Source: Eledone cirrhosa (taxonomy: Eukaryota). From it: a DNA stretch of 64,000 nucleotides. Below, piece by piece: positions 1-57,685 of the stretch (positions are counted from its first letter, which is position 1; every line of letters begins with the position of its first letter). Location: NCBI GenBank assembly GCA_964016885.1, contig OZ024740.1, positions 113,584,001 through 113,648,000 on the forward strand. The letters run 5' to 3'. The translations under genes and the position numbers were made by a program. The notes beneath the pieces were generated by a model. It was not told the origin of the DNA. It worked only from the letters and a program-made list of their open reading frames with translations, and made no database searches.

Positions 1-1340
1 CATTGATGCAATTCAATTCAACACTCAACGTACTTTTTCCACATAGGAGTGACGGAGTAAATATCGAATAAGGAAAAGCGAAGTAGTTTCAGATGTTCAA
101 GTCCTTTAATTAATAATGCTGTGATATATATTTCAATGACGACACTGGCCATACTGTTCTGTGTGCGAGTGTTGTGTCATCATCAGACAGCTTGTTACAT
201 AATAAGGTTATGTTTCCGAGGCAATCCAAATTGAATCGACATGGGAACGGATGAAGTTCGTGCTTTTGGGTTTTTCATCCGTTCCCTTGTGAGTACCAAT
301 TCACCCCCACCGGTCTGCGCAAGCGTATGTCCGAAGGAAGTTGACCATTAGCCACCGCAGATTTCAACGAAATTCACTGTCAGTTCACCCTCTCAGCCAA
401 AACAATGGCCCACCTATGCCCTACCAAAGTTTACTGCTACCCATCACGACTGTGGCAGTCAGCCGAAAGCCAGAGGGGATGGGAGGGTGTTAGTTTTTAT
501 AGGTCATAATACTACCTTTCACCAAACGTTGACAGCAAGCCTGACCATCAACTCATAAGGGAAAATAAACTTAATTCTAGGTACCATGGTTTTACATTGG
601 AAGTTAAGAGTGAGGGTTAGAAATAAAAATTAAAAATTAAAATCCTAAATCAAATATCAGAGATTATAAATTAAACAATTAAAAAATTAAAAAATTCGAA
701 ATTAAAAAATTTTTCAAGTGATAATTTTGGATTGAGTAAAAATATAGATTGAAGTGAGTAAATAATATGGAGAGAGATGTTTAAGTAATAAGTTCTGAGA
801 GGGATTCTAGTGTCCCAGTTACTCTATCCACATATTGAACGACAATGACGTACATTATAACGGAGGGCAAACTACAGGGTTCACGGCATTAGTCAATCTG
901 GTACACAGTCATAATTTCAATCACATGGAACAAAATCAAAGAAATACAGACATAAAGTACACAAAAGAAAAGAAAAGAACAGAACCAATAGTGAATAAAT
1001 GCAAAAACACAGAGTATATGCGAAATGATCCATATGATTGTCCATCTGTCCATGTATAGATTGAATTGAGGGGGCTTCTGTTCAAATGCGATTTGGTGCA
1101 GGAAAATAGGGGTTTATCTTATTTTTTGTTTCCGCATATTTATCCTGCCGAAAGTTACTATTATGCCCGTCCGGTGTCAGGGGTTTTCATCCCCATGGTA
1201 GAGGGAATTTCCAGGGGTAGCTCTTGGTTGGTTCCTCTCTTCTCCACCATATCGGTTACATCATAGAGCGCTCAACTAATCGGAGCTAAATTATTAGGGT
1301 AAACATTGATGCAATTCAATTCAAGCACTCAACGTACTTT
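1..1340 (-). mobile_element. ~1.3 kb hammerhead-bearing unit with terminal direct repeat (Penelope pLTR-like partial tandem; left end cut by window)
   Basis: cattgatgcaattcaattcaa(g)cactcaacgtactttt occurs at 1 and again at 1304 (period 1303). A hammerhead motif lies at 118-191 (-). The unit ends at a short (TA)n. Confidence 0.55.
118..191 (-). ncRNA. Type I hammerhead ribozyme motif, extended stem II
   Basis: Minus strand: gctgt CTGATGA tgac...gtca tt GAA ATATATAT C acagc. Stem I gctgt/acagc, palindromic stem III, AUC cleavage triplet. Confidence 0.75.
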
Positions 1341-1351
1341 TTTATATATAT

Positions 1352-1742
1352 ATAAACGGAAAAAATGAAACGAAATTTTATTTCCCTCTCTTAGTACGGC
1401 TGTTACTTAAATATAAGTATGTACACGTACATACATATATGTATAATCGTTGCTCGTTTGTTCAACACCGACAAAGGAACGCTGTACTAGTTTCAAGCTT
1501 ATTAGCTATCGTCAGCAACGTATACCTTCCTGCCAGATTGTTGAACGTATATACTTACCTTATGCATATTAACGTCTGAGTAGCCCAATTTGCATATCGA
1601 GGGGTTAATCGACCGGGTACACCGAAAACGATAAACGGAAAAAATGAAACGCAATTTAATTTCCCACTCTTAGTACGGCTGTTACTTAAATATAAGTATG
1701 TACACGTACATACATATATGGATGTACGTGTACATACTTATA
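1352..1742 (-). mobile_element. Family A short hammerhead element (279 bp monomer, partial tandem plus terminal fold-back)
   Basis: ~88 bp direct repeat at 1352 and 1631. Terminal inverted repeat tataagtatgtacacgtacat...atgtacgtgtacatacttata. (TA)n on both sides. Homologous to 19721-21002. Confidence 0.8.
1479..1521 (-). ncRNA. Minimal type I hammerhead ribozyme (family A)
   Basis: acgttg CTGACGA t agct aata agct t GAA ACTAGT A cagcgt. 6 bp stem I, 4 bp stem II, palindromic stem III, GUA triplet. Confidence 0.85.
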
Positions 1743-1883
1743 TATATATATATATATAGTAATAATAATAAATTTGAAGACTAAAATCCAAATTCAATAT
1801 AAAAATTAAATTATAGCATTCTATATGTAGGTGGGCCCCCTTCATTTCCTGGCAACCAAAACTTTTAGACGCAGTCCGCCACC

Positions 1884-1924
<41 letters not shown>

Positions 1925-2158
1925 AAAGTTCTATTTAAAATTGTTGGGATACAACAAGTAAATATTTTTATAACTGATATAAAGCACTCGACAAGTATTT
2001 GGAGTAGATATACGATATTAACGTCTTTTTCTAATTGTCCTTAACACTAAGACTTATTAAAATAATATAAACAATTCACTATCCAGATGGCTTCCAAAAA
2101 TAAGGGTTGCATTTTAAAAGGGTACGTCAAAGCTTATTTGTAAAACTGTTATATATTG

Positions 2159-2223
2159 TATTTTGTCTGATGAAGGCATACCATGATTTAATTTGGTATC
2201 CCTGAAATATGTATAATGAAATA
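2159..2223 (+). ncRNA. Minimal type I hammerhead ribozyme (family B)
   Basis: tattttgt CTGATGA aggcatacca-loop-tggtatccct GAA ATATGTAT A atgaaata. 8 bp stem I with two G-U pairs. The downstream flank is shared with 28806-28885 and 57600-57685. Confidence 0.8.
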
Positions 2224-2261
2224 GATATGGTTTTATAAATATAGTTTCCATTTATTAATAT

Positions 2262-2327
<66 letters not shown>

Positions 2328-14348: not shown

Positions 14349-14833
14349 TGCCCACTCTACTACCCTAAGTATTGAGTATTCTGGTGCGTTATGTTCCATC
14401 TAGTTCCTTGGCACACATATATATGTATATGTGTGTGTGTGTGTGTGTGTGTGAGTCTATGTTCAAAATTGATGTAGTATGCTAACATGAATCTATAAAC
14501 CCCATTACCACCACTACAAAAGTAAAAAACACAATGCTGCTCACAGCTTAGAAACATGAAGTTGCTTCTAGTGATGCAGTACAAACTTGCATGAAACGGT
14601 CAAAGAAATCATAATAAAAGAAATTAGTATATATCAAAATAAATATTTCCACAGACATGTATTTATTATTAAGCCATTAATAGTTGTAAATTATTTTACA
14701 AATAATACTTAACAGTGAATATTGATTAGATTTTGACAAAATAAATGGCAAACTTTCCAATATTTCTAACAGGGGATAGTAGCCATCATCATAATATTGG
14801 TTTTTGGTAATAGGTATATCAACAGACGGGTAT

Positions 14834-14876
14834 ACAGTCCTGATGAAGGGTAATGACCCAGAAACATGTTGATTGT
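14834..14876 (+). ncRNA. Minimal type I hammerhead ribozyme
   Basis: acagtc CTGATGA a gggt aatg accc a GAA ACATGT T gattgt. 6 bp stem I, 4 bp stem II, palindromic stem III. Confidence 0.85.
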
Positions 14877-14958
14877 TCTTCAAAGCCAGTTTTGAACAAA
14901 CAGGTGACGATCGGCAAGCTTCAAATCGGGCCCTTTGTTTACAAACGAATCGAACATT

Positions 14959-15144
14959 GATTGGCAGTATCGGTAGAGGGTCGGGCCCCATGCTTTGAAA
15001 CATAGAGTTACCTCCCTTTATGATCTGAGTCAAATCCCGCCGAGGTTAACTTTGCCTTTCATCCTTAGGGGGTCGATAAAATAAAGTACCAGTAATGCAC
15101 TGTGATAATTGCTGGCCTCGTGCCAAAAGTAGAAACAATTATTA
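14959..15144 (+). mobile_element. tRNA-derived SINE
   Basis: A box tggcagtatcgg, core and tail as in other copies. Confidence 0.9.
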
Positions 15145-15195
15145 GTGTTCGAAATAACCCATACGTACATGTATATGTGTGTGTGTGTACATATG

Positions 15196-15239
<44 letters not shown>

Positions 15240-15482
15240 TATGTATATATATATATATGTGTGTGTATGTGTGTATGTGTGTGTGTACGTGTGCATACTT
15301 ACATTTATGAGTCAGCCGAGAATTACATTTCTAATTTTGATTATATATATATATTTATATATAGGAGATTATTAAAATTTCAAGTTATCAATAATGTAGT
15401 GATAATATATCGTCACGTTAGAGATGAACAGCGTAAGTGTAGGTTTGCTCAACGAGTATAAATTATATTCCGGAGAAAATGT

Positions 15483-16170: not shown

Positions 16171-16176
<6 letters not shown>

Positions 16177-16935
16177 AACTTAGTCATGGCATACTTAGAA
16201 GTCCAGATTTATGAACAGTCCAAATCAAAATACGGATTGAACTTCCACAAATATTTATCAGATTGGAAACGTTACTTGGATGATTGTCTCATTCTTTGGC
16301 CGCACACACTCGACCAACTGAATGATTTGAAAAATTTAATAAACGGCATCAATAACCACATCCAATTCACAATGGAATACAGCCAAGATCACCTACCATT
16401 TCTGGACATCTTAATCTTAAAAAAAGACACACATATTGAAACTGACACACACTACAAACCAACAGATTCCAAACAATACCTGCGATTCACCTCCAACTAT
16501 CAAAAGCAGACGAAGACGAACATTCATTTTAACCTAGCAAGAAGAATTTGCACAATTGTCTCCAATTATGAAACGCAAAATAAAAGACTTCAAGAATTAA
16601 AGGAAATTCTACTCGAAAGACAGTACCCACCATTACTTATAAATAATGGAATAGAAAGGGCTAAAGTAATAGGCATTGATGAATTACGAAAACAGAAACA
16701 AATTCAAGGTACGTCCAATATTCTATCATATATCTCAACACATAACCCAAGAAATGCGGAAGCTTACAACACTATTCACAAGAACATCCCACTACTGAAA
16801 CAAGACCCAAGAATTAAAAAAGCCATTGAAACACACAAAATAATTAAAAGCAAAAGACAACCGAAATCACTGAAAACATTACTCACCTATGCTAAATTAC
16901 CTACCAGAAACCCAAAACAACTGTCAAAAAATGTC
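16171..16935 (+). mobile_element. Penelope-like element (probably Neptune group) reverse transcriptase, C-terminal half
   Basis: NLVMAYLE..WKRYLDD..IQFTME..LPFLD..YKPTDSKQYL..FNLARRICTI..RQYP..KRQPKSLKTLLT. 5'-truncated at (TA)n. The ORF-track N-terminus from 15871 is spurious. No GIY-YIG domain seen. Confidence 0.92.
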
Positions 16936-17438: not shown

Positions 17439-17475
17439 CTTTTGAGAAGCAGAAGAACTGCGAAACCGGTAAAAG
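17439..17475 (+). ncRNA. Decayed hammerhead in the probable 3' pLTR downstream of the Penelope RT
   Basis: cttt tgagaa gcag aagaa ctgc GAA ACCGGT A aaag. The CUGANGA box is damaged and the rest is intact. AATAAA and (TA)n follow. Confidence 0.55.
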
Positions 17476-19636: not shown

Positions 19637-19725
<89 letters not shown>

Positions 19726-19925
19726 TATGTATATGTACATAGATATATGTATACAAACGTACAGTAGTGTGTATATATATACATACATGCACACATATAT
19801 ATATGTACGTATGGATTTACTGAACATTTATTACAATGCTCGGTTTGTTTGTAACAAACATCACGAATTAAGCGGTACAGTGTTTAGCAACCATCGATGA
19901 CCTTTTGTTCAACACTGACAAAGGA

Positions 19926-19968
19926 ACGATGTACTAGTTTCAAGCGTATTAGCTATCGTCAGCACCGT
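19926..19968 (-). ncRNA. Minimal hammerhead (family A)
   Basis: acggtg CTGACGA tagctaatacgctt GAA ACTAGT A catcgt. One stem II mismatch. Confidence 0.8.
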
Positions 19969-20510
19969 ATACCTTCCTGCCAGATGATTGAACGTCTGAA
20001 AGTATATACTTTCCTTATGCATATTAACGGCTGAGCAGCCTAATTTGCATATCGAGTGAGTTAATCGGCCGGGCACACCGAAAACGATAAATGGAAAGAA
20101 TGAAACGAAATTTCATTTCTCACTCTTAGTACGGCTGTTACTTAAATATAAGTATGTATACGTACATACATATATGTATACAGACCTACACATATGTTTG
20201 TTTACCAACAAACCGAGCATTGTAATAGATGTTCGGTAAATCCATACGTACATATATATATGTGCATGTATATATATATAGATACTACTGTATGTCTGTA
20301 TACATATATGTATGTACGTATACATACTTATATTTAAGTAAAAGCCGTACTAAGAGTGAGAAATGAAACTTCGTTTCATTTTTTCCATTTATCGTTTTAG
20401 GTGCGCCCGGCCGATTAACTCACTCGAAATGCAAATTAGGCTGCTCAACCGTTAATATGCATAAGGAAAGTATATACTTTCAGACGTTCAATCATCTGGC
20501 AGGAAGGTAT

Positions 20511-20553
20511 ACGGTGCTGACGATAGCTAATAAGCTTGAAACTAGTACATCGT
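20511..20553 (+). ncRNA. Minimal hammerhead (family A)
   Basis: acggtg CTGACGA tagctaataagctt GAA ACTAGT A catcgt. Confidence 0.85.
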
Positions 20554-20790
20554 TCCTTTGTCAGTGTTGAACAAAAGGTCATCGATGGTTGCTATACATA
20601 CTTATATATATATATATATAAATCATTTTTATAGAATAGAATGTATAATAGAAGGCTATAGCAAAGTAGATCGGACAAAATATCAATAATAACAAAAAAA
20701 AAATCGGTTTGTTTGTAAACAAACAGCCCGAATTACGCCGTACAGCGCTCGGCAACAATCGTCGCCCTTTTGTTCAACACTGACACAGGA

Positions 20791-20833
20791 ACGATGTTCT
20801 AGTTTCAAGCTTATTAGCTATCGTCAGCATCGT
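20791..20833 (-). ncRNA. Hammerhead (family A) with mutated cleavage triplet
   Basis: acgatg CTGACGA tagctaataagctt GAA ACTAGA A catcgt. GUA has become GAA, so it is predicted inactive. Confidence 0.75.
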
Positions 20834-22967
20834 ATACCTTTCTGTCAGATGGTTGAACTTCTGAAAGTATATACTTTCCTTATGCATATTAACGGTTGAG
20901 CAGCTTAATTTGCATATCGAGTGAGTTAGTCGGCCGACCATACCAAAAACGATAAATGGAAAAAATGAAAGGAAATTTCATTTCTCACTCTAAGTACGGC
21001 TGATATATATATATATATATATTCTGATTTCCAGCTTGCTTGTTTTATTCTCCCATAAACACTGGTATAAACCGCAAGCTATCTTTAAAAAATCTACATA
21101 TTTCTTCTTTCGATTCTTAAAAAAAAATCTCTGAATTCATTCCAACATCTAATTGATAAAAAAACCCAGTGCATTTTATTTTATGAGGATGATAGTCCAT
21201 GATGTTTTAGCACAGAAATCAGAACTATCAGGAAAAGAATTCATACTTGTCTTTAGTTAAGTGATTTGCTAATATGAATCCAAATGTTTGAATGTGGGTT
21301 TAAACTCAATACGTTTTACAGAATAACTTCAAAAAAGATTTCAATCATGCATTCTTGACGAAAATAACATAAATATTTTTCAGGACTCATTCCGACGATG
21401 CTGGAAAAGAACAATAGATTAAAATCTAGACAGGTCAAACCCAATAATGTTATTGTAGGATGATATACATGCACTAAATCCCAATATTTGTTTTAAATAC
21501 TTTGTATGTGAGTCTAGTTTTATAGATATATCAATGGAGGTTTATAGATGAAACTGACTGTTTATTCACCAATTGCCTTTCTCTTAAAGTGTAACCTACG
21601 CATTCACTTTAACACACATGCCATTGACCTAGTCTCGCAGAAAATTGCCAAATCACTCTCAAGTCCACTGTAATGTCTTATATCGGAAGTTTTCAATTAT
21701 ATGTATTTTTTTATAGTGTTTAGTTAGGAAAGAAAAAGTAGTGTCCCTTTCAATCTCTCCAAGGCTGTTGAAATGTAACAATTCCTAGATGCAATATATC
21801 TGAAAAAAAAGACATGATAGTTACAACTGGAATTGTATATCTTATGCTTGTATAAGATCATACCTGACATAGAACTCCACACGTCAATAGCAATGACAGT
21901 AAATATCAACGAAATATCACACAAATCACATACCGTCTTCCAAAAAGTGAAAGGCATATTGTATAATATATAAATAGGTATCCACGAAAAGACAGGATGG
22001 TTATGGTTGGAATACTTTTTTCTCCATGAGCTTACTTGATTAGGTTTTAATCTAGAGCTGAATGACAATGACAGCGGAGACAAAGGTGTGATTTGATGAG
22101 AATTTGGCGGGCATGTCTTATAAGTGGAACGGCCATATAGGAGGCCTTTCGTTGGCAGGTTTTTCTTCATGAAAAAAATTAAGGTTCATATAAAACTACA
22201 AGAGTTTCTCTGGTGGCGTCTCAATGATAATTTAACTATAGCACAATTATCTAGCATTAATTAACCTGATTAAATAAATTATTGACGCGATAGCCATAGG
22301 TGTTTTTTGATTCTATGGTTTACTATAAGATTATCCATTGTATCAATGCGTGTGTAATTAAGAATAATTGGATGGACTGTACAGTCATAAACGACTATTT
22401 GTTTGTTTATATAGTTTCACCATGGACATAAAACTATTCTAGAGTTTCAACGTATTGCGTTCTTATCAGTAGCTGCATACGCTCATTGTAACTGACCAAT
22501 ATGATAGTGTTTACGTTTCTAAAATATATCTAATTAATTTTGATTAGTTAACACATACAATAATGACTAAAATCTATGAGTTTGTCCTATACTATTCTAT
22601 AACATAATTAATGTGAGCACATTACTAATGTAGTTTATCTGTTGGTTTTTAGATATCTGTTGGATGATAAAAGTAGATTTAAAACTACAATCTGGTATTA
22701 ATTATAAACACTCGAAGGTTATGTATTGTTTTCATCTAAACTGATTATTATAAATACATATGGGAGAATATGCGGAGCCATTGACGTGATACGAACAATT
22801 AATACTCGCTTTGCTAGATTACAACACTATCGATTTGATTAACTGCTAGTCTATATAATATATAGACACGTGAATATAAACATTGTAGTGAAACTTCTTC
22901 CCAAATGGCTCGTTATTTTGTTATTGATCAGCACTTACTCGACCGCAAAGGAAATAACGTATATAAC

Positions 22968-49466: not shown

Positions 49467-51301
49467 ATGACCCCCTCTCAGAATAGGTAGCATAAATGCG
49501 CGTGGCTTGGGGTCGTCATGGAAGCAGGGCCACATGCTCAACGACCTCAAGTCACTAAACATAGATGTAGTGGCCATCAGCGAAACCAGAATCTCCGAAG
49601 CACGGGCCTTCGCACCGATCTTCGGCGTCTACGATGTGTACGCATCTCCCAGCCGTCCGGGATCGGGGTGAGGTGTTGCTGTGCTTTTTCGGAGAGGTTT
49701 GGATCTCGCCATACGGGCCATCTTCCTGGACCCAGAAGGTAAGATGGTGGTGCTAGACGTGACCAGCGGAGACGGGCAAGCTTTCAGGCTAGTGGTCGTC
49801 TATGCCCCGACAGGAGCAGGGCGGCCTGATTTCTTCCGGCGTCTAGAGACCTTTCTTGAAACATCCCGCTCTTTAGTGTTAGTGGGCGACTGGAACGGGA
49901 TCTTAGATGCACGCTGGGACTGTGTGGGATTAGCGGATAGGGTGCAAGAGCCTCAGCAACCTGCTCAGGCGTTTTGAACTGTCTGACAGGTACCGATTGG
50001 ATTTCCCGAATGTGCCAATGTGGACTTGGACAAATCGCATAGGGTCATCCAGTTCATATCTAGATAGAGTATTTTGTAGGGAAATAGATAGGTCTAGCGT
50101 AGGCTGTCCACAATTCAAGATAGTCAGCTACACGGACCACAAATTCGTGATCTGTGTGCTTGAATTAGATAGGCTTCATAGACGCGGACCCGGCTACTGG
50201 AAATAAAACGCGTCTTTACCAGCGCGCAAGTCCTACAGAGACCGGATTAGCGAACTAGTTAAGCGGGCGTTGACGGGGGCCATCTTCAACAACAAGTGGT
50301 GGTTTTCTCTGAAAAGAGCAATTAGAATAGAATCCATTAGGTTTGGTAAGGCTTTAGCAATAGAGAAAAATAGAGCAGAGGGAGAATTAGTTAGAAAATT
50401 AGACGAGGCATTAACAAAGGCATCGCGACCACGTACTTGCGGCGAAAATGGCCCTTGACCAATTCTTCAATGCAAAGCACGAAGGCTGCGTTGTCAGAGC
50501 TAGAGTGCGTGCTCTCAGACACGAGGGGACGAAAGCTGTTCAATGGGCCCGAGTGGCGGAGGCGCGTCGTGGCGCATGCTACACGATCCTGGGCAAATGT
50601 GTGAATCTTTTCAGCGACACTTCGCAGAGTTGTTCGGGAGCAGCGGCGGGATGGATCGAGGGATGGACTCTAGTGTCTACCTCGACGAACTGCCGCGGCT
50701 CTCGGCCACAGAGGCGAGGTGTTGCGAAAAGCCGATAACAGCCGCTGAAGTACGGGAGGTAATGACTGGCTGCACAAGGGGTAAATCGCCTGGTTTGGAT
50801 GGTCTGCCCTATGAACTTTACGTACAGATGCCAGACTTCTTCGGAGGCCTCTTGGCGGACGTCTACTGCAACTGGCAACAGAACGGGAGAATTCCCAGCT
50901 CTGTGAGCCGAGGAGCTGTGGCGCTGCTGAGAAAGGATCCGAACAAGGGGGATAACATAGATAATTTTAGGCCCATAATTCTGCTAAACACAGAGTTCAA
51001 GATTTTGGCCAAGGTGCTAGCAAAGAGGTTGGCGCCTGTCGTTGGTGGTCTGGTGGGAGAGGCGCAGATATGCGCCATTCCCGAGAGATTCATCCACGAC
51101 AACCTCCACCTCATGCGATACATCGTAGAGAGGGTAGCTAGGGAACCTGGCACGGGTGGGGCCTTGATCAATTTAGATCAGTCGAAAGCTTTCGATAGGG
51201 TCGACCATCGTTACCTAGCGGCAGTCCTGAGGTCGGCTGGCTTTGGGCCCGTCTTCAGAGGCTGGATCGCTGCCATGCACAGCGACATCTGCTCTGTGGT
51301 G
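49467..51301 (+). pseudogene. Tx1-type ORF2 (APE endonuclease + partial RT), disrupted
   Basis: IGSINARGL, DVVAISETR, VYAP, LVGDWN, SYLDRVF, TDHKFV, GPGYWK, KSPGLDGLPYELY, NFRPIILLNTEFKILAKVLAKRL, LDQSKAFDRVDH. Confidence 0.93.
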
Positions 51302-52020
51302 ATTTCTGGCCTTGTGGCAAAAGTAGAAACAATTATTATAATAATAATTATTATTAGAGTGGTGGGTTGGCAGTATCGGTAGAGCATCAGGCCACATGCT
51401 TTGCGGCATATAGTTATGGTATTTTGCATCATTCGGAGTTCAAATCCCGCCGAGGTTAGCTTTGACTTTCGTTTAAATAAATCACCAGTAATGAACTGGG
51501 TTCGATTTACTCCCCCCCCCCAATTGCTGGCCTTGTACCAATAATAGAAACCGTTACTATTATTATCATTAGGACGGTGGAGGACAGGGGCTTGGTAGAA
51601 TCATTAGAGTGTTGGAGAAAATGTTTTGCGGCATTTATTCCGGCTTTTTACGTTGTGAGTTCAATTCCCGCCAAGGTCTACTTTGCCTTTCATCCTTTCT
51701 GGGTTGATAAAATAAAGTACCAGTAATGCACTGTTGTTAATTTAACTGACTTTCCCTTCCCAAAAAATGATTGGCCTTGTGCCTATATAAGAAACCATTT
51801 TTAGGACGGTGTATTTGCAGAATCATTCGAGCGCCGAACTGTAGATGTTCCGGCTGCTTATTTTCTGCTTTCAAATCCCATCTATGTTAACTTTCTCTTT
51901 CATCTTTCCATGATCGATAAAATAAAGTACCAGTAAATTAATGGAGTCGGTGTAATCCACTTTCCCCCTGGGCACTTCCAAATTACTGATCTTTTGCATA
52001 AAAGAGAAATCCTTATTATT
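51302..52020 (+). mobile_element. Head-to-tail cluster of SINEs (tail fragment plus three diverged copies)
   Basis: Heads at ~51358, ~51572 and ~51805, each with a B box and tail. The first two are preceded by short (ATT)n. Confidence 0.85.
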
Positions 52021-52959: not shown

Positions 52960-54930
52960 TGTATGTACGTTTGTATGTTCTTCTGGTTTTATAATTTCAC
53001 AAATGTTTGCCAATAGAGAGAGAGTCGGTTTCTAACATAGACACAAGAATCTCTCATTGGAATTTACACATCAACTAGATAGATATGTATGCATGTCTAC
53101 ATGCATGTGTAGATATGGATGTTATTGTATGTGTGGATGTGAATGTTTTGAGTTGTACGCGTGCATGTGTATATGCTTAGTATCTGTACATGTGAATATG
53201 TAGTTAGTAGATACAAAATATTTGGAATGTTTTACATATTTTTACTGTTCCATTAATGTATTGTACTTATAATTTCTTCTCAAGATTTGTATTGAGGCAG
53301 TTACTAACACATCCAAGTGCCCCAATAATCACAGGCATAAATGTGAAGGTATAATCAGTGTGGAGTATCTGCAGATTTCTCATCAGTTCTGCATAAATAT
53401 TCTCCCTTTCGCCTATCTTTGATATTATATTGGGATCTGCTGGACAGCTAACTCCCACTACTGTGCATGCCTTCTTTTCCCTGTCCCATATCATAATATC
53501 TGGTCTGTTATGCTTGCATTTTATTGGGGTTTTTACTTGAACATTCCACCATTACTCTTTCATTTTATGTATATATGTATGCCTTCCACATTGCCGTAGC
53601 GTTTAATGTATTTATTATCGGGGCTATCTTTTCTACGGATTGCATTGTACTGTGTTTTGGCCATTACATCATGCCTCATAGGTTGATAGTACCGCGATGA
53701 CATTTTGGACAGCTGCTTATGACATGGGTGACATCTTCGATGTTAATTCTGCAGAGTCTGCACTTGTTATCACATCTAGGTGTTCTGCCTGCATCCCTAT
53801 CTCTTTTGTGAATCAGGTATTTCGTGTTAATCTCCTGTTCTTGGATTGCAAACGTGTATCCTTCAAAGTGGGAGCCAATATAGCGGTTGTTGGTCCAAGA
53901 TAGACTACTTTCTTTATCTATATTACTCTCACTCTGGAGCGTCCTGGCAAAATATCCATGCATGATTCTTTGCTGATATTCATGCAGTTTTTCATCCGTG
54001 GATTCACTGACATTCTGCTGAACAACTTCCCTGGGTGTGAGTTTTTGATTATCACACAGGGAATACCTCTCGAGGAGTTCATTCCCAACTCTCATGCAAA
54101 TAGACTTGCTCGAGAGACGGGCTCCTACGATTTGAGGTTTGTAGATGTTGTCGGAGGGATATGATGCGACATTCAAATGCTGTCTGGACTGATGTTAGGC
54201 TCTGCCTCCCTGCTTACGTTTCAAGTAAAGGCGGTCTATGTGGACGTTTCCGGTTTTGTTTAGTATTTTTCGAGTTCTAACATCAATCGCTCGGATTTAG
54301 TCTATTGTCTAATTGAGTATTCCAAAAGTTGGTGTTAGTACAGGCACACCAAACTCATTGTGAGCCACTGTTTTGTTTTGCGTAGAGTGTTCCGATGACC
54401 AAATCTTTCTTAATCGGGTGTAGTATTCCCTGGTGACGCGTTCTTTATTACAGATACCATTATAGGATATGTTCTCATCTATCCGCAGGTATCTGTAGCA
54501 GTCCTTATCAAATATTGGTGAAACAGTTAGGCCATTGATACAAATGTTGCTAGATTGGGTTGTTGTTTTTCCCCGCTTTACAGTCATATATGAGCATTTA
54601 TCTTGGCCAAACTCCATTCCTTTATCCTTTGAGAATGTTGTAACCCGGTTAACATTTTTCTTTATCCCATCCATGTTCTTGGCATAGAGTTTCAGATCTT
54701 CCACAAAGAAATTATGGGTTAGGTTCGTATTTCTGTTCTCCTGTGAGCCAATGATGTATCCTTCACATTTCTTGAACAGAAAGGACAAGGGGTTAAATGA
54801 CAGGATGAATAATATCACAGAGAGACTGTCTCCCTGAAATATACCACTGCGATATTTTATTTTATCAGTGAACATAGAGTCCTCCTTTTGTGTCTTTAAC
54901 TTTAGGATAGTAGCTCAAGAAGAATGCATG
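52960..54930 (-). mobile_element. R4/Dong-clade non-LTR retrotransposon, 3' part (RT, CCHC finger, PD-(D/E)xK endonuclease, 3' UTR)
   Basis: GIFQGDSLS, THNFFVEDLKLYA, GMEFGQDKC, QEQEINTK, CRLC..EDVTHVISSCP, RHD, NRPDIMIWD..VSCP.D.N, PVIIGALG, GTVKICKTF. Frameshifted. Confidence 0.92.
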
Positions 54931-57255: not shown

Positions 57256-57600
57256 AAATTAAAGAAATTATTTAACCTGATAGTGGGGTTCAATAATTTC
57301 TTTAATTTCTTTAGTCAAAATACGGCGATAGCTTACATTTCTAATAATTTCAAACCCACTCGCTGTTTCGAAAATATTCTTACTTGACATTACAGTCGCT
57401 AAGTTTATAGCTTCTAATTTGAATGGAAAGAGACGGGTGATGTGTTGGTGTAAATGGTACACAGTGGTCCGGATAACCAAAGATGTGGATTCGACTCCCA
57501 TGTACGTCAATACTCATCTTTTTCCATTTCTCCGAGGTTTCTTAACCCCACTATCAGGCTAAATAATTTCTTTAATATCTTTAGTCAAAATACGGCGATA
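57256..57600 (+). mobile_element. Family C: 270 bp monomer with internal tRNA-like cloverleaf, partial tandem plus short 5' inversion
   Basis: aataatttctttaat..ctttagtcaaaatacggcgata at 57292 and 57562. 57256-57290 is an inverted piece. Cloverleaf at 57439-57509. Confidence 0.8.
57439..57509 (+). pseudogene. tRNA-like cloverleaf with A and B boxes (not a functional tRNA)
   Basis: gatgtgt/gtacgtc acceptor, gtgt/acac D stem, tggt/acca anticodon stem, gtgga ttcgact cccat T arm. The anticodon loop ccggata lacks U33 and purine 37. Confidence 0.7.
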
Positions 57601-57685
57601 TCTGATGAAAGTGCACCATAATTTGCCTTGGTTGCCCTTGAAATATATATAATAAAATAAATATAGTTTCCATTTATTAATATAT
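57600..57685 (+). ncRNA. Family B hammerhead, 5'-truncated in stem I and fused to family C
   Basis: t CTGATGA aagtgcacca-loop-tggttgccctt GAA ATATATAT A ataaaata, then the family B flank. Confidence 0.65.

What the first reader, a model, noticed from the sequence alone, without database searches (positions are those of the whole stretch)
1352..1742. Family A: retrozyme-sized monomer with covarying stem I
Seen: 279 bp period, one hammerhead, no ORF, a terminal hairpin and (TA)n on both sides. Stem I reads acgTtg/caGcgt here, acgGtg/caTcgt at 19926 and 20511, and acgAtg/caTcgt at 20791. One position is thus U-G, G-U or A-U and always paired. Inference: selection on the RNA fold. Tandem transcripts could be cut to monomers and circularised, as described for retrozymes.
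Basis: partly seen in the sequence, partly recalled or inferred. Interest (0 to 1): 0.75.

Follow-up and report, generated by a model that had tools for sequence, protein, structure and literature searches.

The report
Deleted copy of Penelope-spread retrozyme
This is one internally deleted copy of a protein-less repeat whose hammerhead-ribozyme motif occurs over 25,000 times in this animal genome; the normal unit is about 425 bases, not 279, and it is predicted to cut itself, is likely transcribed from a built-in U6-like promoter, and is likely pasted into (TA)n by Penelope-type jumping-gene enzymes, probably from a circular RNA.

Summary
The sequence description is right, but the 279-nt monomer is not. 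The hammerhead core has 25,386 exact matches genome-wide. Family A tandem units are 420-453 bp, or 456-538 bp in one subfamily. The junction that makes the 279 spacing occurs once in 3 Gb: a private deletion. With one ribozyme, this locus cannot release a unit-length RNA. The 'terminal hairpin' is a Penelope-type 5' inversion. The stem I position is paired in 293 of 302 copies, but the G.U to U.G flip is about one ancestral event. Stronger covariation comes from sister family B. Insertions end at two fixed sites next to (TA)n, one per arm in 33 of 36. cDNAs run through the cut site (44 of 70). Arms and units share rare alleles about 40-80 times more than controls. Each unit carries a block like the host's U6/U6atac promoters, spaced 4-5 nt shorter. 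No RNA data. The scan noted this family, its ends and its promoter before on other DNA of this genome.

The parts
1343..1354 (.). (TA)6 target microsatellite, left
1355..1716 (-). Main arm, ribozyme sense. Its 3' end is at fixed site 2 (unit position ~275 after the cut)
   Evidence: 2,478 exact site 2-(TA)n junctions genome-wide
1352..1444 (-). Second copy of unit positions ~182-275, holding site 1, a hairpin, a T6 run (1365-1360) and site 2
1445..1446 (-). Junction of a private ~143-150 nt internal deletion that produces the 279 spacing
   Evidence: 1 match in 3 Gb; full units 420-453
1460..1546 (-). Extended helix I, about 28 predicted pairs around the ribozyme
1479..1521 (-). Type I hammerhead motif: helix I 1521-1516 with 1484-1479 (variable pair 1518.1482 = U.G), core 1515-1509, helix II 1508-1495 with a U.U at its base, 1-bp helix III with palindromic loop 1494-1485, predicted cut between 1485 and 1484
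   Evidence: activity not tested
1548..1596 (-). U6-like promoter block: octamer-like box 1596-1585, TCAG 1579-1576, TATA 1554-1548
   Evidence: transcription not tested
1631..1723 (-). First copy of unit positions ~182-275 (5'-truncated part of the previous unit)
1717..1738 (+). Short inverted arm (the 'terminal hairpin'), 3' end at fixed site 1 (unit position ~219)
   Evidence: 32 of 70 site 2 insertions have such an arm
1739..1758 (.). (TA)10 target microsatellite, right
19716..20620 (.). Second family A insertion, two-armed (minus 19716-20190, plus 20194-20620), G.U subfamily, cores at 19962 and 20517
20706..21021 (-). Third family A copy, A-U subfamily, core at 20827, cut-site U mutated

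Best explanation
This is a 1.3-unit, two-armed, internally deleted insertion of an abundant ~425-bp non-coding hammerhead repeat (non-LTR retrozyme) whose RNA is predicted to self-cleave, is likely made from a built-in U6-like promoter, and is likely reverse-transcribed into (TA)n by a Neptune-type Penelope-like element, probably from a circular monomer. Shown in sequence: unit length, copy number, two fixed 3' ends 56-59 nt apart, one site per arm, (TA)n targets, read-through of the cut site, rare alleles shared within an insertion, the promoter-like block. Inferred: read-through transcription of tandem units (promoter p~0.6); cleavage as a dimer, because helix III has one pair (p~0.8); ligation to a circle used as template (p~0.6); priming at site 1 and site 2 from the two sides of a break in (TA)n (p~0.85); Neptune as the partner clade (p~0.6). 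This copy lost ~145 nt and has one ribozyme, so it would yield no unit-length circle on its own.
For: 25,386 core matches, control 0. 34 distinct family A monomers of 420-538 bp among 35 listed; the other is a 310-bp family D unit. One array fills a 9.9-kb stretch. 145 of 179 3' ends at two sites (71 and 74), 137 of those 145 beside TA; 33 of the 36 two-armed insertions with both ends at a site have one of each (58 two-armed in all). This matches the two internal RT start sites and 'tail' of a Penelope protein in vitro (PMC11167929) and the 5' inversions and (TA)n bias of PLEs (PMC8557442). 44 of 70 insertions chosen by their 3' junction pass the cut site by more than 12 nt, 10 pass it twice, and 5 stop within 12 nt of it, near the ~4 expected. 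Rare alleles in both pieces: tandem units 36 of 298, opposite arms 13 of 221, unrelated insertions 8 of 5,224. Six of 28 pairs show changes on both sides across subfamilies and family B; 96.3% of cells paired against 26-44% when slid. U6-trained score beaten by 0 of 150 shuffles for this locus, A2 and A4, 1 of 150 for an A1 copy, 2 of 150 for B; the 3 sites over threshold in the 64-kb window are all family A. The held-out U6atac gene has the same box at -78 and TATA at -31. Intact 775-aa RT plus GIY-YIG elements with a CxxxxCxxC linker also end in (TA)n.
Against: No RNA evidence of transcription, cleavage or circles. A Penelope protein in vitro used uncleaved RNA and did not need its ribozyme (PMC11167929), and 8 of 9 Xenopus retrozyme dimers did not cleave (bioRxiv 2026.07.22.740005). 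A uniform donor array read as linear RNA, or gene conversion, also gives shared alleles; 15 of the 31 tandem pairs that share an allele come from one locus, L194. Overall within-insertion divergence was not lower than to the nearest other locus in most of 27 loci. Box-to-TATA spacing is 41-42 against 45-47 in U6; the model rests on 3 U6 promoters and the spacing window was set after seeing the data; the U1/U2-type score is not significant (25-67 of 150 shuffles); subfamily A1 has an 8-nt deletion behind the TATA. No autonomous PLE with a homologous terminal repeat was found in 42 + 30 PLE loci; only a short 3' motif is shared (shuffle p 0-0.8 over 8 comparisons, chosen after inspection). In one search the count of pairs with double changes did not beat the shuffle control (327 of 500).
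Confidence: 0.82

Rival explanations
1. Same family and same PLE enzymes, but the template is an uncleaved linear multimer transcribed through tandem arrays; circles, if made, are by-products.
For: Unprocessed RNA was the main substrate of a Penelope protein in vitro. A 1-bp helix III and a U.U at the base of helix II predict weak cleavage (axolotl precedent). Young arrays are uniform. Site 2 lies just behind a T6 run that could be a Pol III end.
Against: 5' ends do not pile up at the predicted start site or at the cut. The fold is kept by compensatory change, including a helix whose 5' strand lies upstream of the predicted start. Circles are the main form in mussel, coral and axolotl.
Confidence: 0.35
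2. One reading: a 279-nt monomer class that is cut out and circularised.
For: The spacing is real and a hypothetical 279-nt circle keeps helices I and II in the predicted fold.
Against: The junction is unique in the genome. The locus has one ribozyme. No 279-bp unit among 35 monomers.
Confidence: 0.03
3. The copies are only the truncated 3' pseudo-LTR of an autonomous PLE, or a DNA-level satellite, with no life cycle of their own.
For: Animal retrozymes are proposed to derive from PLE terminal repeats. My PLE survey was partial: 150 of 20,461 and 150 of 10,596 candidates scored.
Against: Upstream of the ribozyme lies the previous unit, not an ORF, in all 13 loci printed and in the tilings. No PLE ORF under 75% identity to the 775-aa query lay beside any copy held. 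Fixed ends, inversions and successive subfamilies point to repeated retrotransposition of the short unit itself.
Confidence: 0.08

Closest known systems
Metazoan non-LTR retrozymes (Cervera and de la Pena 2020, PMC7229834, parts 2-4 of 6 read; Li, Clavereau and Pollet 2026, 10.64898/2026.07.22.740005, parts 1-3 of 5 read)
   Same: Short ORF-less tandem unit with one type I hammerhead, thousands of copies, strongly folded RNA (z -7.3), PLEs in the same genome. Helix III is like axolotl HHR_Amex1; the U.U in helix II is like HHR_Amex2.
   Different: Those papers propose PLE mobilisation from co-occurrence and terminal-repeat homology. Here the insertions themselves carry the PLE footprint, and a U6-like block sits in each unit. 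Expression and circles are shown there, not here.
Penelope-like elements, Neptune type (Craig 2021, PMC8557442, passages; Frangieh 2024, PMC11167929, parts 1-2 of 4; Cervera 2014, PMC4209133, parts 1-2 of 4)
   Same: Partial tandems, 5' inverted arm, two internal RT start sites (tail), (TA)n targets, hammerhead with palindromic helix III.
   Different: No ORF. The tail is 56-59 nt against 30-40. The autonomous elements found here carry a U3-A8 hammerhead and share only a short 3' motif with family A.
Newt satellite 2 and schistosome hammerhead satellite (seen only as cited in PMC2220036 and PMC6765202, passages; originals not held)
   Same: Hammerhead tandem repeat with an internal promoter that ends up at the 3' end of the cleaved monomer.
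   Different: Newt: snRNA-type Pol II promoter. Schistosome: Pol III. Here the block best matches the host's U6/U6atac upstream box plus TATA, with shorter spacing; the polymerase is undetermined.

Membership tests
Non-LTR retrozyme | Type I hammerhead in each unit | tested here: met
   Core, helices and covariation; no Rfam hit
Non-LTR retrozyme | Tandem units of a few hundred bp, at least two consecutive ribozymes | tested here: met
   Family: 420-538 bp units. This locus alone does not meet it: one ribozyme
Non-LTR retrozyme | No protein-coding ORF | tested here: met
   46 aa at most at this locus
Non-LTR retrozyme | No LTR, PBS or PPT | tested here: inconclusive
   Ends are fixed internal sites, not LTRs; PBS and PPT were not searched for
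Non-LTR retrozyme | Self-cleavage of the RNA | not testable with these tools
   Needs in vitro transcription
Non-LTR retrozyme | Unit-length linear and circular RNA in vivo | not testable with these tools
   Needs RNA data or a northern blot
Autonomous Penelope-like element | RT plus GIY-YIG ORF | tested here: not met
PLE-mobilised element | Two internal 3' ends (tail) and 5' inverted arm | tested here: met
PLE-mobilised element | Insertion into (TA)n | tested here: met
   137 of 145 site 1/site 2 ends
PLE-mobilised element | Homology to the terminal repeat of an autonomous PLE | tested here: inconclusive
   None in 72 PLE loci; short 3' motif and like helix II geometry only
U6-type (type 3) promoter | Upstream box and TATA as in host U6/U6atac | tested here: met
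U6-type (type 3) promoter | Host spacing between box and TATA | tested here: not met
   41-42 against 45-47
U6-type (type 3) promoter | Drives transcription | not testable with these tools
   Needs a reporter or 5' end mapping

The most novel reading that the evidence does not exclude
A self-sufficient RNA-circle retroelement: each unit hijacks the host's U6-type promoter, read-through transcripts are cut and circularised so that the promoter travels inside the circle, and a dimeric Neptune PLE enzyme copies one ADAR-edited circle from two fixed sites into both sides of a break in (TA)n.
Probability: 0.3. Interest if true: 0.75.

Novelty: new variant of a known kind. Interest (0 to 1): 0.48.

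Why it matters
How animal retrozymes are transcribed and which enzyme copies them is proposed but not shown in the papers read here. This family names the promoter candidate, the two priming sites, the target and candidate enzymes, so each step can be tested directly. The locus itself is an ordinary damaged copy, and it warns against reading a monomer length from one insertion.

Tried and rejected
279-nt monomer class: rejected. Splice donor upstream of the ribozyme: the GTAAGT is only in subfamily A1, dropped. Pile-up of 5' ends at one unit length as a sign of a circle: 17 of 70 ends at 380-460 nt, but inverted arms primed at the other site break at the same unit positions, so a sequence hot spot explains it. 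Overall within- versus between-insertion divergence: uninformative. Strand bias of private substitutions: A>G 103 versus T>C 73, p 0.15; only the alleles shared within insertions lean A>G, 8 versus 1 of 27, a weak hint of editing. Local alignment of U2 upstream DNA to the unit found only TA-rich matches; the U1/U2-type score is not significant. The four U.U copies share few derived sites, so a U.U intermediate lineage is not shown. Sequencing runs: no RNA holder listed; contigs of four runs were laid and show the same variable sites but nothing on expression. Rfam's microRNA hits are the inversion hairpin, below gathering score. A 21-nt match to PLE loci lies in the RT coding region and is taken as chance. 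Literature: 'retrozyme + octopus' gave 3 papers, 2 listed, neither on this family by title or abstract start; 'octopus + hammerhead ribozyme + Penelope' listed one work; two searches listed none with 'retrozyme' among 15 shown each, out of 4,965 and 933. Supplements were not opened; lists of retrozyme-bearing species there may include relatives.

Full report
Setting. The window lies on contig C1 of a 3.0-Gb animal genome rich in microsatellites; earlier scan notes call it a cephalopod, which I did not test.

Observation. The 279 spacing, the single minus-strand hammerhead motif, the lack of an ORF, the hairpin and the (TA)n flanks are all present. The four stem I strings are exact. Rfam does not detect the ribozyme.

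The unit. The 29-nt core has 13,075 + 12,311 exact matches, control 0. Of 35 distinct ribozyme-to-ribozyme monomers, 34 are family A: 420-453 bp, and 456-538 bp in subfamily A4. The junction behind the 279 spacing has one match in the genome. The finding is therefore a standard unit that lost about 143-150 nt. It holds one ribozyme, and its 1-bp helix III predicts cleavage only as a dimer (PMC4209133). No ~280-nt circle is expected.

Covariation. Among 312 distinct ribozyme contexts, 302 had recognisable flanks. The variable pair is U.G 181, G.U 90, A-U 18, C-G 3, U-A 1 and unpaired 9; independence would give about 161 paired. The association is subfamily structure. On 219 of these copies with both positions masked, parsimony needs 3 changes for U.G versus the rest and 4 for G.U versus A-U, and G.U is the state of the most divergent subfamily. 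My sample is biased towards copies like the queries. Better support comes from family B, a diverged homologue with a copy at 14840. On 24 hand-picked rows, 6 of 28 named pairs change on both sides and 96.3% of cells pair, against 26-44% when slid. Four of the six are the single A-versus-B split, and that count did not beat the shuffle control (327 of 500).

How copies insert. In 130 loci, 145 of 179 distinct 3' ends fall at two sites 56-59 nt apart, 137 of them beside TA. Of 58 two-armed insertions, 36 have both ends at a site and 33 of these have one of each. In 70 of the 2,478 site 2 junctions, 32 have an inverted arm starting at site 1 and none at site 2; 44 pass the cut site by more than 12 nt, 10 pass it twice, and 5 stop within 12 nt of it (my counts from its table; two loci look like a local duplication). 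The finding fits exactly: main arm to site 2, a 22-nt inverted arm from site 1. Two internal start sites, a tail at one end, 5' inversions and (TA)n bias are PLE marks. Rare alleles are shared by tandem units (36 of 298) and opposite arms (13 of 221, in 9 loci) far more than by unrelated insertions (8 of 5,224) (overlapping loci were dropped and two long arrays left out of the tandem count). So the pieces of an insertion share a template, which cannot be the cleaved linear monomer. A circle and an uncleaved multimer both fit; I put the circle at 0.6.

Partner. An intact 775-aa RT plus GIY-YIG family and several relatives are abundant and end in (TA)n; the CxxxxCxxC linker places them with Neptune or Nematis by the description in PMC8557442. 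They carry U3-A8 hammerheads, a variant known from schistosome PLEs, and one family has a helix II with the same U.U base and three pairs as family A. Only a short 3' motif is shared, so no parent is identified.

Promoter. Three independent U6 loci have an octamer-like box at -76 to -78 and TATA at -31; ten U1/U2 upstream variants have TCA(G/A)T at -56 to -58. Family A and B units carry box, TCAG and TATA in this order upstream of the ribozyme. The U6 score is beaten by 0-2 of 150 shuffles, family D lacks it, and the only 3 high sites in the window are family A copies. The best of 8 U6atac loci fetched, not used in training, has the box at -78 and TATA at -31 (the script's TATA label is offset by 60). 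Against: spacing is 4-5 nt short, the U1/U2 score is not significant, and A1 has an 8-nt deletion behind the TATA. No T4 run lies between the predicted start and the site 2 region, which suits Pol III, but propagation of the promoter needs read-through. That vertebrate U6 spacing is strict is recalled, not checked.

Comparison and novelty. It works like, and by sequence belongs to, the metazoan non-LTR retrozymes; activity and circles are untested. The PLE footprint and the U6-like block make it a variant. I reached both readings before opening the scan's notes, which already report them for this genome; those notes are not independent support.

Verdict. Real, known kind, misread in monomer size; the family gives a testable model. 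Interest 0.48.

Noticed in passing
window 17442-17471 (+); L091, L357, L361, L364: Autonomous Neptune-like PLEs carry a U3-A8 hammerhead variant near their 3' end, missed by a standard core pattern; an RT fragment of one lies at 16174-16920.
   Followed up: partly
window 14819-15318 (+); L135-L157: Family B, a diverged homologue of family A with the same promoter block. Many copies carry a ~200-nt tRNA-type SINE inside a hairpin loop (SINE label recalled, not from a call).
   Followed up: partly
L188, L195: Family D: unrelated 310-bp hammerhead tandem repeat with like ribozyme geometry (G.U at the same helix I pair) and no U6-like block.
   Followed up: partly
window 1922-2263 and near 57602: Family C: hammerhead with a long helix II and two 3' ends at (TA)n, inserted 160 nt from the finding.
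   Followed up: no
window 1293-1343 and L386:3490-3539: 51-bp direct repeat flanking 1.25 kb left of the finding; matching inverted ends appear further out (L386 ~3215 and window ~1790-1884), suggesting nested insertions in an older element.
   Followed up: partly
window 20194-20620 (+): Another internal deletion of the same structured domain: the arm jumps from unit position ~51 to site 1.
   Followed up: no
L388, L389, L394: U6atac copies without promoter sit next to (TA)n runs, possibly retrocopies made by the same enzymes.
   Followed up: no
L268-L312, L338-L340: U1 and U2 genes of this genome have a TATA-like box near -30 and no exact octamer within 300 nt, whereas U6 has the octamer-like box right upstream.
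   Followed up: partly
window 41145 (-), 57055 (-), 19069 (+), 6349 (+): Further hammerhead-core-like motifs of other families or chance.
   Followed up: no
window 50504-51382 (+), 53676-54914 (-), 57439-57509 (+): LINE-like RT fragments (by eye) and a weak tRNA match of 31.6 bits.
   Followed up: no
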